From the NCBI GenBank assembly GCA_965226555.1, contig CBDDDG010000002.1, positions 32,001 to 96,000 of the forward strand: a stretch of 64,000 nucleotides of DNA, given 5' to 3'. This DNA comes from Salinispira sp. (GTDB taxonomy: Bacteria; Spirochaetota; Spirochaetia; DSM-27196; Salinispiraceae). Shown here piece after piece: positions 15,001-18,000 of this stretch; position 1 is the stretch's first letter, and the number at the start of each line of letters is the position of its first letter. The position numbers were made by a program.

Positions 15001-18000
15001 AGAGCAGACCGTAAAAAAGGAATCGCTTAAAGCTGCTCTTTCTCAGAACAAAAAACAATGGCACCAGACTGATCCACGCAAGCGCCCCGAAACCATTCGC
15101 GCTCAGTACCGAGGGAAAGCTGAAGGCATGCATAAGAGCTGAACCAACAACAAGACCCATATGCCTGAGTATCCGCCCGCAGGCCCTTCGCTTCCGGCCC
15201 CTGTCTACAACAGTGAGCAGGGAAAGCGCCGCGGGAAATACCAGCAGGTACAGACCATACTGCAGTAAAACCTCAATCCGCTCCGTTCGTGTATCTATAG
15301 CAAGGTTGAGGTTTCCACTGCTGGCGATAAAGCGCTGAACATAGTCCATATTTGCCGCCAGTGCAAAAATATAGAAAAACAGGAAAACAATGAGCGAAAA
15401 TGCAAATAGCAGCTCACATATGAAAAAGGGCTGCCCCTGCGCATCATCGGAAAACTGCTCTGCTTCTCTGCTTGTTTTTCTGCTTTTTTCTCTGGTTATT
15501 CTTCTGATTTTTTTGCTGATTTTTCTTTTCCAACGTTTGCGAATGTTCTCTGCCATGCGCGCAGCGTTTGTAACGGCATACGTATTTCCGTTTATCTGCT
15601 TTCTGGATGTGAACAGAAAAAACATACCGGCTGCACTATGCAGCGCAGCAAGGAGAAAAACCATAATGTCGCCTGAGGCAAGGTTCACCGGCATTCCCTG
15701 CACAAGAAGGAAGAGTGAAAGAGAAAAAAGAGCTGTGCCTATGTAAAGAAATGACAGTATCATGTACTAGAGAATTTTACGCAACTCTTCAAGTCCCTCA
15801 TCGTTCATAACACTGTCAATGATCTTTCGTCCCAGCGGATCAAGTTCAGGCCTGAGGTACTGCTCCAGTTCCTTTTTAAAGAAGGCTGTGAGAATTTTTG
15901 CGCCTGCATCGTATCCTGCCTTTCCAACTTCTATCTGATCCTGCACCTGAAGAAGTGTATGGGGCAAAAATTGACCGTTTACTCTCAATGAGGGAAGAGT
16001 ATAGCCGAGAAGAGGACAGCGGCTTTCAATTACCTGCTGCTTTCGAAAATTCAATGAACCGCGGCGGGCAACGTATTCCCGGACAATCCATTCGGGTTTA
16101 AAACCAACATAATACGCGCCGATGTATTGGTTGGGTATGAGAATATGCTTAGTATTAGGGGTATTCTTTATAATTTCAAGCAGTATGTTTGCATGATTTA
16201 CCCGCTTTCCTGTTGCAAATGGCCAGTATGAACCAACACCCTCACTCATCAGCCCCTTACTTCCAACAATACTTGGATTCGCATGACCACGGGGTGCGAC
16301 AAGCCGCCAAAGCCAGCTGAGGGCAGACGGAAGAATGTGTATCATTCCGATAATGCCGTAGTTCGGCTGATCTTCGGTAGTTGGCGGTGTTCTCACACCG
16401 AAGCTTCGGACATCCACCCGAACCTTGCCGTTGACCGTGTTTGGAACATACTCCCGGGGCATGATAACACGGGGATTCGGACAGGGCTTACCGGGTCCAT
16501 CCATCGTATGTTCCCAGATCAGAGCGGTTGCTCCGGGATTCCCATCAATGTTAAGAAAAATGAGAGGATGCGGGGGACTTATGCAGAGTTTTTCCAGCTG
16601 CGGTTCCTTACCGTATTCATTCAAATGGTCGACCCGAAGAAACCAGGCATTTTCCGCATCTGAAATGACAAGCTTACCGTTCTTCGGCGGGTGGGCTATG
16701 GCCATATCATCTGCGATGGGATGCAGCTCGCAGGTATCGCTGAGTTCAATATAAAAGTCATCTCTGGTAATGATATTACGGGCAACAAGAATTCTCACAT
16801 CGGTCTCTCTGTGGAGTTCCTGAATCATCTCACTTTTTCCGCCTCCGCTTGCTCCTTCATGAAGAATAACAAATTCATTATCATAGGGAGTAATTAAACG
16901 GACTGCCGAGCTGTGAAGAGTTGTCCATCCCTCTGCCTCGCCGACGGTGAGCAATACCCCATACACACCCTTTTTTGCGCTCGGCCCGGGATACAGGTTA
17001 TAGCAAAACAGTTCATGGCAGGTATCCAAACGATTATGTACGACAACCTGTTTTCCATCAAAATGAGTATGTCTGAACGGCGGAGCAACAAATAATATGG
17101 CGCGGGGAGTAAAATTTTCAGTGACCTCCGATGCCGGAATAAAGCCCTGAAGATCGGCAAGAGCGGTTACAAAAAACCCCGCGTTGGATGGCGCAATAAG
17201 TAATGAGGGATAACTTGAATCTGCCGTACCGCTGTTAAAGGGCAAAAGAATAAGTTCGTCGAAATTCCTGAGCCAGTCCAGCGTTTCCTGCCGGGTCTCG
17301 GTAAATTCCTTGTGAAAACGTTCTCTGAAGCGGACCTTATCTGTCGGCTTATCGTCGGCAATGACCATTGCGTCAGGATCACGCCTGCGCATATATTTCT
17401 CGGTATAATTGACAGAAGCTCCGTTCTTGCAGCGGGTTACCGTTGCTTCTGGAACCCTCCCCATATTGGGGATATCGTATGCAACTTCAAAGACATCTGA
17501 ACGCCCCTGAAAGGTTAATTCAAGAAGCTGCTGCCGTGTTTCAGGAACAATAACGTTATTTTCAGTAAGAATTCTCCGAATGTCATCTGAGAGGTTTAAT
17601 TTCGATATACAATTATGATTCATAGTGATTCCTCCCGTATTATATCAGACTAAAGGTTCTTTGTGTACCATGGGGTGGCTTAGTCGGCGCTGCGCGCAGG
17701 CCGAGCGGCGATAATTAATGCGATCCGTTCCGCACTGTCCGCATTTCCTCATCGCTCAGCCCGGTAATCCTCTGAACAGCCTCAGTTGACAAGCCTTCCG
17801 AAAACATACTGCGGGCCGTTTCTCGAATGCCTCTCGCCATTCCCAGCTCAAGACCTTCAACCTTGCCTCTCTCCATTCCTTCCGCAAGACCTTCAACCTT
17901 GCCTCTCTCCATTCCTTCCGCAAGACCTTCAACCCGTCCTTGGTTGACAAACCAATCACTCATCTGAACTTTTTTCATCATAACCCTTTCTCCTCCAGAA

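What a model noticed while it worked through the whole genome (the two positions that open the first line are those of the whole stretch)
15767..17623. DUF4914 is a fourth, compact class of PEP carboxykinase and the genome's only C3-C4 link
The 618-aa DUF4914 protein (g00341) folds over its whole length like PEP carboxykinase and keeps the catalytic motifs, in a genome with a full TCA cycle but no PEP carboxylase, ATP/GTP-PEPCK, pyruvate carboxylase or malic enzyme. It is an unrecognised PEP carboxykinase, most likely pyrophosphate-dependent and half the size of the known PPi enzyme, and it does the anaplerotic CO2 fixation here. New if true: a catalytic function for a paper-less family found in at least 3,512 bacterial genomes, and a fourth PEPCK class.
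Evidence so far: AlphaFold model pLDDT 89.3. Foldseek: every listed top hit is a PEPCK, best E 5e-23, TM 0.68. VIA-align: Z 30.9, rmsd 2.9, 487 aligned to T. thermophilus PEPCK; Z 30.8, rmsd 3.1, 576 aligned to PPi-PEPCK 6K31, the longest alignment. Invariant in 42 of 42 aligned homologs: R79-81, Y211, K217-K218, H237, P-loop G257-ASGGGK263, D305-D306, N383-P-R385; their match to PEPCK's Arg, Tyr, Lys-Lys, His, P-loop, Asp-Asp, Arg is from recalled E. coli numbering. The Lys-Lys motif recurs in 10 of 10 distant long homologs, the P-loop in 9 of 10. No HMM hit to PDB sequences, which is why it is unannotated. Not found in this genome: PEPC (present in 4 of 4 relatives, call 190), malic enzyme (3 of 4, call 18 [...]
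(Added by a program. Inside this text positions count along the whole contig: contig position 32,001 is position 1 of the stretch shown here. "Call 12" and the like, gene names such as g00115 and contig names such as C1 are that model's own, and its searches are not shown. The text may have been shortened before it was handed on; [...] marks where a part breaks off. The agent that wrote the report below was given it as the finding of a first reader that could run no searches.)

Follow-up and report, generated by a model that had tools for sequence, protein, structure and literature searches.

The report
Fourth PEP carboxykinase class, likely pyrophosphate-linked
This gene belongs to a widespread bacterial family for which no paper was found; it has the predicted fold and the catalytic residues of PEP carboxykinase but fits none of the three known classes, so it is likely a missing CO2-fixing enzyme of central metabolism, probably driven by phosphate/pyrophosphate rather than ATP or GTP.

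Summary
The 618-aa ORF is a typical DUF4914 (PF16260). My AlphaFold model (pLDDT 94) matches only PEP carboxykinases over its whole length. Seven of eight published E. coli catalytic residues are identical and near-invariant across 342 homologues; the eighth is Lys→Arg. Whole-profile similarity is highest to ATP-PEPCK, and a four-class tree is unresolved, so this is a separate lineage. Donor-side features lean towards PPi-PEPCK: P-loop SGGGKSE, R330, a PS…SEG…PF lid, no adenine or guanine motif, and the best superposition (570 residues, 2.8 Å, 18%). That is suggestive only. The genome (93.5% complete) has a full TCA cycle but no PEPC, known PEPCK, pyruvate carboxylase/OAD, malic enzyme or glyoxylate shunt; one complete relative lacks the same C3–C4 enzymes. 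Against a simple replacement, 15 of 29 DUF4914 spirochaete genomes also carry GTP-PEPCK and 2 carry PPi-PEPCK. Elsewhere the gene follows mpsC with purE/purK, a likely CO2-use context. One correction: a family profile does hit PDB ATP-PEPCKs. No paper was found. The scan noted the PEPCK-like reading before on other DNA. Odds: PEPCK reaction about 0.8; with Pi/PPi about 0.5. No assay exists.

The parts
15767..17623 (-). DUF4914 gene, 618 aa, PEP-carboxykinase-fold enzyme
17631..17636 (-). Shine-Dalgarno-like GGGAGG, 7 nt before the ATG
   Evidence: read directly from the sequence
17381..17389 (-). R79-R80-R81; R81 aligns with E. coli R65 (substrate arginine)
   Evidence: hhalign; R79 and R81 342/342
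16970..16993 (-). Y211-P-G-P-S-A-K217-K218; aligns with E. coli Y207 and K212-K213
16913..16915 (-). H237; aligns with E. coli H232 (metal ligand)
   Evidence: 341/342
16829..16855 (-). P-loop G257-ASGGGKS-E265; K263 = E. coli K254. E265 is Glu as in PPi-PEPCK (ATP class T/S, GTP class N/S/T)
16706..16711 (-). D305-D306; aligns with E. coli D268-D269 and the PPi-PEPCK Asp-Asp
16628..16654 (-). E324-x3-F328-x-R330-x-D332; R330 stands where ATP-PEPCK has K288 and PPi-PEPCK has Arg
16469..16477 (-). N383-P-R385; aligns with E. coli N331-T-R333, and with N-P-R in PPi-PEPCK
16217..16291 (-). Predicted lid (omega-loop) region R445-F469 with PS...SEG...PF, shared with PPi-PEPCK; lowest-confidence part of the model
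   Evidence: lid identity inferred from its position in the alignment
16088..16135 (-). P497-W512, region of the nucleobase pocket; lacks the ATP-class and GTP-class base-binding motifs
   Evidence: register inferred from sequence alignments
13430..15763 (-). lnt (apolipoprotein N-acyltransferase), starting 4 bp downstream; likely co-transcribed, no functional link proposed
   Evidence: same order in 4 of 5 family relatives examined, 5 of 101 loci overall

Best explanation
DUF4914 is a separate, fourth lineage of the PEP carboxykinase superfamily that likely catalyses PEP + CO2 ⇌ oxaloacetate, probably with phosphate/pyrophosphate rather than a nucleotide, and in this genome it would be the enzyme that refills the TCA cycle from glycolysis. 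Mechanism, inferred from PEPCK chemistry: Mn2+ held by K218, H237 and D306; PEP/oxaloacetate and CO2 held by R81, Y211, K217, S259, N383 and R385; a second metal with Pi/PPi held by the P-loop (K263, S264) and R330; the 445-469 lid closes over the enolate. Invariant E265 stands where nucleotide enzymes have a neutral residue that contacts the nucleotide. PPi made in the carboxylating direction would be drained by this cell's PPi-type phosphofructokinase, pyruvate phosphate dikinase and membrane pyrophosphatase, pulling CO2 fixation forward. Shown: predicted fold, residue conservation, gene content. Inferred: reaction (about 0.8), donor (about 0.6 given the reaction), direction and physiological role.
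For: (1) Fold: among 48,161 representative chains only the three PEPCK classes match full length (Z 25-30); next come a Euglena complex I subunit (Z 17.4) and HPr kinase (Z about 7). (2) Profile match to ATP-PEPCK: prob 97.9, E 3.6e-13, 484 columns. Seven of the 8 E. coli residues listed in PMC13147460 (R65, K212, K213, H232, K254, D269, R333) are identical, K288 is Arg. (3) PPi-like donor side: E265 342/342 and R330 341/342 match PPi-PEPCK Glu and Arg (42/42 each; both solved PPi enzymes carry SGGGKSE), against T/S and K in 14 ATP-type and N/S/T and V/I in 14 GTP-type sequences. The equivalent Asn contacts GDP phosphates and guanine in a GTP enzyme (PMC4370629). Lid segments score 23 with PPi against 11-16 with the others. 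(4) Superposition on 6K31 covers 570 of 618 residues with the lowest rmsd (2.8 A) and highest identity (18%) of 50 rows; TMq 0.71 against 0.61-0.67. (5) Neither the ATP-class R-x5-T motif nor the GTP-class N-W-F...F-G-x-N motif is conserved. (6) Gap filling: G000 has a full TCA cycle and lacks PEPC, PEPCKs, PYC/OAD, malic enzyme, ICL and malate synthase. Of 9 other DUF4914 genomes with no known PEPCK, 0 have PEPC and 1 has PYC/OAD; 1 of 5 tested has malic enzyme; G056 is a single contig, 100% complete, with none. (7) Context: mpsC lies upstream on the same strand in 22 of 100 loci, often with purE and twice with a PurK-like gene. (8) Carboxylation is thermodynamically favoured only for the Pi/PPi reaction: -6.7 against +6.5 and +3.8 kJ/mol (PMC13147460).
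Against: No assay or expression data. Whole-length profile scores rank ATP (E 4e-13) > GTP (1e-8) > PPi (1e-3). Unbiased segments give N-lobe 56/24/22 and C-lobe 42/41/42 for ATP/GTP/PPi. The tree does not reject any sister class (AU p 0.57/0.31/0.55 for PPi/ATP/GTP). VIA Z scores of ATP and PPi enzymes are tied, and a longer target offers more residues to align. A G-K-S-E P-loop also occurs in this genome's HPr-kinase-like ORF, a family recalled to use ATP. The invariant His-Asp of PPi-PEPCK in the pocket region is F508-variable here. The anchored-block score favouring PPi (11 of 16 blocks) is biased: several anchors came from the PPi alignment and the PPi set was chosen by its P-loop. 15 of 29 DUF4914 genomes also have GTP-PEPCK and 2 have PPi-PEPCK; 6 of 7 family relatives keep PEPC. 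Membrane and soluble pyrophosphatase content does not separate DUF4914 genomes from the rest (27/29 vs 146/172; 3/29 vs 37/172). By hand count, 29 of 172 DUF4914-negative genomes have no PEPCK at all, so lacking one is viable. Extra invariant residues (E59, R79, R184) are unexplained.
Confidence: 0.5

Rival explanations
1. A PEP carboxykinase of a fourth lineage that uses a nucleotide (ATP, GTP or ITP) through a differently built base pocket, for example F508/W512.
For: Best whole-profile and N-lobe similarity is to ATP-PEPCK; top VIA Z is an ATP enzyme. G507-F508 resembles the G-F of the GTP pocket, F508 and W512 are 337/342, and R411 matches the ribose-binding Arg of GTP-PEPCK, although PPi-PEPCK has that Arg too. 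0 of 29 DUF4914 genomes hold a canonical ATP-PEPCK.
Against: Invariant Glu at the nucleotide-contacting P-loop position; only one of the three GTP-pocket Phe positions could be matched; the ATP-class Arg position is variable (M/K/Q/N/A); lid and structure resemble PPi-PEPCK. Frequent co-occurrence with GTP-PEPCK (15/29) is easier to explain with a different donor.
Confidence: 0.27
2. A PEPCK-type carboxykinase acting on a different, possibly larger 2-oxoacid or enol phosphate, or a phosphotransferase/decarboxylase with another role in a CO2-limitation operon.
For: Identity to solved enzymes is 11-18%; extra invariant R79, R184, E59; coexists with every other C3-C4 enzyme in complete genome G014; neighbours are purine genes rather than TCA genes in many loci; the fold has been repurposed once (Euglena complex I subunit).
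Against: All mapped substrate and CO2 residues are kept; no solved full-length PEPCK-fold enzyme with another substrate appears; several genomes need a C3-C4 link and have no other candidate.
Confidence: 0.18
3. The family assignment is right but the local claim is wrong: this organism refills the TCA cycle from imported amino acids or dicarboxylates, or its ppc lies in the unassembled part, and the enzyme mainly runs gluconeogenically.
For: 93.5% complete, 6.7% contamination; 6 of 7 family relatives have PEPC; three TRAP-type permease ORFs are present (family label recalled).
Against: In three relatives ppc lies two genes from pyk, whereas in G000 pyk is followed 134 bp later by another gene in mid-contig; low-stringency tblastn finds no ppc fragment (best E 0.015).
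Confidence: 0.25

Closest known systems
PPi-dependent PEP carboxykinase (EC 4.1.1.38; A. israelii 6K31, P. freudenreichii 8E1U)
   Same: Fold over 570-575 of 618 residues, rmsd 2.8-3.2 A; SGGGKSE P-loop, E-x3-F-x-R-x-D, G-K-P-x-x-N-P-R, PS...SEG...PF lid; Lys-Lys, His, Asp-Asp.
   Different: 618 aa against about 1130-1150 aa; no sequence-search hit; profile E only 1e-3; invariant His-Asp of the pocket region not kept; N-lobe not detectably closer.
ATP-dependent PEP carboxykinase (PckA, EC 4.1.1.49, PF01293; E. coli 1AQ2/1OEN, T. thermophilus 1J3B/2PC9)
   Same: Best profile match (prob 97.9); Z up to 31.4; 7 of 8 listed catalytic residues identical; N-lobe most similar.
   Different: No PF01293 match; T256→E, K288→R; adenine motif and L-T-x-D-A strand not conserved; about 80-90 aa longer.
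GTP-dependent PEP carboxykinase (EC 4.1.1.32, PF00821/PF17297; rat, C. glutamicum 2ZCI)
   Same: Similar length; Z about 26, 515-529 aligned; F-G-x-R strand; profile prob 95.6.
   Different: No PF00821 match; no P-loop Cys; guanine Phe triad and Asn not conserved.
HPr kinase/phosphorylase (PEPCK-like C-terminal domain)
   Same: P-loop domain fold (Z about 7); G-K-S-E P-loop end.
   Different: Covers only about 145 residues; lacks the N-lobe with the substrate and Mn residues.

Membership tests
DUF4914 (PF16260) | Full-length match above the Pfam cut-off | tested here: met
   1022 bits against 25.7, profile 1-611/612
PEPCK superfamily | Two-lobed PEPCK fold over the whole chain | tested here: met
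   predicted model
PEPCK superfamily | Catalytic set Arg, Tyr, Lys-Lys, His, P-loop Lys, Asp-Asp, Asn-x-Arg | tested here: met
   mapped on E. coli PckA by hhalign; 341-342 of 342; residue list from PMC13147460; 3D positions of side chains not inspected
PEPCK superfamily | Catalyses PEP + CO2 ⇌ oxaloacetate | not testable with these tools
   needs an assay
ATP-PEPCK (PF01293) | Family HMM above cut-off | tested here: not met
   no PF01293 match; NCBIfam PRK09344 11.4 bits against 369
ATP-PEPCK (PF01293) | K288, Thr/Ser after the P-loop G-K-T, adenine motif R-x5-T | tested here: not met
   R330, E265, variable 509 and no Thr; adenine motif definition recalled, register from sequence alignment
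GTP-PEPCK (PF00821) | Family HMM; P-loop Cys; Phe triad and Asn of the guanine pocket | tested here: not met
   triad from PMC4370629; only F508 may correspond
PPi-PEPCK (EC 4.1.1.38) | About 1100-1150 aa chain detectable by sequence search | tested here: not met
   618 aa; no hit to 6K31/8E1U; PPi query finds nothing in G000
PPi-PEPCK (EC 4.1.1.38) | SGGGKSE P-loop, Arg at the K288 position, PS...SEG...PF lid | tested here: met
   these signatures were derived here, not taken from a paper
PPi-PEPCK (EC 4.1.1.38) | Nucleoside pocket filled by bulky residues (recalled from Chiba et al. 2019, not readable here) | not testable with these tools
   no access to model coordinates; the PPi-class His-Asp is F508-variable here
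PPi-PEPCK (EC 4.1.1.38) | Sister-group relationship | tested here: inconclusive
   232-column tree, 59 sequences: weights 0.48 PPi, 0.31 GTP, 0.21 ATP; none rejected
Pfam PEP-carboxykinase clan | Curators already list DUF4914 in the clan | not tested
   clan membership is not shown by the tools

The most novel reading that the evidence does not exclude
DUF4914 is a compact pyrophosphate-forming PEP carboxykinase, the minimal core of the PPi-PEPCK lineage. It would be the main CO2-fixing C3-to-C4 enzyme and an unrecognised PPi source in many anaerobes (Spirochaetota, Clostridia, Thermotoga maritima, Bacteroidota, PVC), in some of them switched on with mpsC and purE/purK when CO2 is scarce.
Probability: 0.45. 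Interest if true: 0.8.

Novelty: new variant of a known kind. Interest (0 to 1): 0.66.

Why it matters
Reviews count three PEPCK types (PMC8100219, PMC12547629). A fourth class in a large family, including the model organism Thermotoga maritima (positive control, with no ATP-PEPCK, GTP-PEPCK or PEPC match), would fill a gap at the PEP-pyruvate-oxaloacetate node of many metabolic models. If it uses Pi/PPi, it favours carboxylation and makes PPi. That bears on the open question of how PPi-dependent glycolysis gets its PPi (PMC8863071); whether C. thermocellum carries the family was not established. A 618-aa PPi-linked carboxylase would also be a handy engineering part and a link between the PEPCK classes. 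One coupled assay decides it.

Tried and rejected
Single-sequence PDB and NCBIfam searches gave nothing significant. Pyrophosphatase content as a test of PPi use was uninformative. Strict replacement of another PEPCK is rejected (15/29 with GTP-PEPCK, 2/29 with PPi-PEPCK). Anchored-block scoring was down-weighted: one search had one mis-indexed ATP anchor, and both share an anchor bias towards PPi. The four-class tree was unresolved. Whether C. thermocellum has DUF4914: not among the 120 listed hits of one clostridial query, inconclusive; its extracts did not use Pi in the PEPCK reaction according to PMC8863071. No RNA holder listed. A functional link with lnt was rejected as lineage synteny (5 of 101 loci). 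No E. coli AspC-like hit in G000; other aminotransferase families were not searched. Not searched: archaeal-type PEPC, transcarboxylase and propionyl-CoA routes other than through PF02436, and C3-C4 enzymes in DUF4914-negative control genomes. Chiba et al. 2019 and McLeod & Holyoak 2023 were not held, so the published PPi-pocket residues could not be read. Not in print: searches for 'DUF4914' (0 papers) and PF16260/IPR032583/'DUF 4914'/'fourth type of PEPCK'/'novel PEP carboxykinase'/'PEPCK-like protein' (one unrelated wheat preprint); the library lacks most subscription journals, and supplements were not searched.
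Full report
Observation. The minus-strand ORF 15767-17623 encodes 618 aa with a GGGAGG site 7 nt upstream. 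It matches Pfam DUF4914 over its full length at 1022 bits. Its closest named relatives are spirochaete proteins (76% to Salinispira pacifica). Thermotoga maritima is the one control genome of 14 with the family. Two literature searches for the family's names found no relevant paper.

Fold. A model from a 103-sequence alignment reached pLDDT 94.0 and pTM 0.91; its weakest stretch, 441-460, is where PEPCKs have their mobile lid. All 43 Foldseek rows shown are PEPCKs, best E 3.8e-24. VIA-align gave Z 31.4, rmsd 2.9, 487 aligned for T. thermophilus ATP-PEPCK; Z 30.9, rmsd 2.8, 570 aligned, 18% identity for PPi-PEPCK 6K31; Z 30.6, 3.2, 575 for 8E1U; and Z about 26 for GTP enzymes. A Foldseek-independent search of 48,161 chains found only the three PEPCK classes at Z 25-30, then a Euglena complex I subunit (Z 17.4) and HPr kinases (Z about 7).

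Catalytic residues. I fetched E. coli PckA and aligned profiles (prob 97.9, 484 columns). R81=R65, Y211=Y207, K217-K218=K212-K213, H237=H232, K263=K254, D305-D306=D268-D269 and N383-x-R385=N331-x-R333. Seven of the eight residues that PMC13147460 lists for this class are identical (passages read); the eighth, K288, is R330. In 342 distinct family sequences these positions are 341-342 of 342. R80, G257, A258 and G261 vary in divergent members. Enzymatic activity of PEPCK type is therefore likely, and the substrate side gives no sign of change, apart from three extra invariant residues (E59, R79, R184) that I cannot place.

Which class. The protein fails the ATP and GTP family models and is half the length of PPi-PEPCK. 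I built class alignments: 14 ATP-type, 14 GTP-type and 42 PPi-type sequences. The PPi set was found by a P-loop pattern, and one member was confirmed against 6K31/8E1U; 80 loci were listed, 47 had complete ORFs over 1000 aa and 42 were aligned. Whole-length profile scores rank ATP, GTP, PPi. Segments cut on DUF4914 alone give N-lobe 56/24/22, C-lobe 42/41/42, P-loop 35/29/35 and lid 11-16/13/23 for ATP/GTP/PPi. A tree on 232 common columns rejects no sister class (16 of the 42 PPi rows and 15 DUF4914 rows used). It is best called a fourth lineage.

Donor. Features next to the phosphoryl donor lean towards PPi. After the P-loop G-K-S the family has Glu (342/342), as PPi-PEPCK does (42/42, by construction of that set, but also in both solved structures), where ATP enzymes have T/S and GTP enzymes N/S/T. 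That Asn contacts GDP phosphates and guanine in a GTP enzyme (PMC4370629, passages). R330 matches the PPi-class Arg (42/42). G-K-P-x-x-N-P-R and the PS...SEG...PF lid are shared with PPi-PEPCK. The adenine motif (recalled) and the guanine Phe triad are not conserved. 6K31 gives the longest, tightest superposition. Against this: Z scores tie, a longer target aligns more residues, an HPr-kinase-like ORF in this genome also ends its P-loop in K-S-E, the PPi-class His-Asp is F508-variable, and F508/W512 could stack a base. My anchored score (11 of 16 blocks for PPi) is biased and is given little weight. The two structural papers on PPi-PEPCK were not readable; what I say of their pocket is recalled. 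I put Pi/PPi at about 0.6 given a PEPCK reaction.

This genome. G000 (93.5% complete, 6.7% contamination) has citrate synthase, aconitase, monomeric IDH, SucAB, SucCD, SdhAB, FumC and an MDH-type dehydrogenase. It has no match to ATP-, GTP- or PPi-PEPCK, PEPC, malic enzyme, PYC/OAD, isocitrate lyase or malate synthase, while 6, 5 and 4 of 7 family relatives have PEPC, malic enzyme and PYC/OAD. In three relatives ppc lies two genes from pyk; here pyk is followed directly by another gene in mid-contig, and relaxed tblastn finds no fragment. Loss is thus more likely than a gap, though not proven. The cell has PPDK, a membrane pyrophosphatase and a GGDD-type phosphofructokinase, and no soluble family I or II pyrophosphatase was found. 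That suits a PPi enzyme but is the phylum norm.

Other genomes. In 201 Spirochaetota genomes, 29 have DUF4914; 15 of these also have GTP-PEPCK, 2 PPi-PEPCK, 2 a divergent ATP-type protein and none a canonical ATP-PEPCK; 10 have no known PEPCK. Of the 9 besides G000, none has PEPC and one has PYC/OAD; of 5 tested, one has malic enzyme. G056, a single 100% complete contig, has none of these, which removes the incompleteness objection for at least one lineage. These 9 genomes fall in 4 families and are not independent, and by hand count 29 of 172 DUF4914-negative genomes have no PEPCK either. PMC8100219 (section 10 read) notes that most PPi-PEPCK organisms also keep a nucleotide PEPCK, so coexistence does not refute the reading.

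Context. Here the gene is followed 4 bp later by lnt, a synteny of the family only. In 22 of 100 other loci, from Bacillota and Spirochaetota, an mpsC gene lies upstream on the same strand. purE occurs in 16 loci (some within ordinary pur operons), DUF3360 in 10, a PurK-like gene in 2, and malic enzyme is the convergent neighbour in 4. MpsC lies beside the MpsAB bicarbonate transporter in S. aureus but is dispensable there (PMC6689103, passages), so this is a hint of CO2 use, not proof. I found it before consulting the scan's earlier notes, eight of which describe the same family as PEPCK-like on other DNA; one more appeared.

Verdict. It works like a PEP carboxykinase, is not a member of any of the three named classes, and has no paper that I could find. 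Reaction about 0.8, Pi/PPi about 0.5 overall, anaplerotic role in this cell plausible but inferred. It would add an enzyme class at the centre of metabolism (three types in PMC8100219 and PMC12547629, passages) and a candidate PPi source for PPi-dependent glycolysis (PMC8863071, passages). It is new as a function for a known DUF, not a new kind of chemistry. PMC10441589 (passages) confirmed only that the classes are held to be homologous.

Noticed in passing
L159, L162, L164, L166-L168, L171, L175-L177, L179, L182, L187-L189, L192, L195-L197, L203, L213, L217: Recurrent operon mpsC - (purE, purC) - DUF4914 - (PurK-like, DUF3360) in Bacillota and Spirochaetota; 22 of 100 loci. The leader RNA mentioned in earlier scan notes was not examined.
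   Followed up: partly
L239-L244 (G060, G123, G071, G230, G201, G073): A divergent ATP-PEPCK-like group of about 550-580 aa that scores only E 1e-12 to 1e-18 on PF01293, with YFGE-x-KKG and GLSGSGKS motifs; two DUF4914 genomes carry such a protein.
   Followed up: partly
ESM Atlas: Twelve unnamed clusters of about 495 aa with no Pfam family score 0.91 against DUF4914; possibly a further PEPCK-like family.
   Followed up: no
PDB 8j9h_E2: A Euglena respiratory complex I subunit matches the model at Z 17.4 over 331 residues: a PEPCK fold reused as an accessory subunit.
   Followed up: no
window 19211-20929 (-): 572-aa probable surface protein with fibronectin III domains and DUF285 repeats, suggestive of a host-associated lifestyle.
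   Followed up: no
window 7950-9482 (+) and 17715-19042 (-): Two broken, mutually similar ORF sets that look like Rpn/PD-(D/E)XK recombination-promoting nuclease genes (label recalled, not scanned); one lies directly upstream of DUF4914.
   Followed up: no
window 7600-8020 and 9390-9730: GC-rich repeated elements giving repetitive ORFs in several frames.
   Followed up: no
L273-L277: In family relatives DUF4914 lies next to a GAF-domain gene and genes that look like NAD(P) transhydrogenase subunits (label recalled); in G000 these have moved elsewhere.
   Followed up: no
L211, L214, L219, L220 downstream of DUF4914: A 290-330-aa ORF without Pfam match follows DUF4914 in several Verrucomicrobiota loci.
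   Followed up: no
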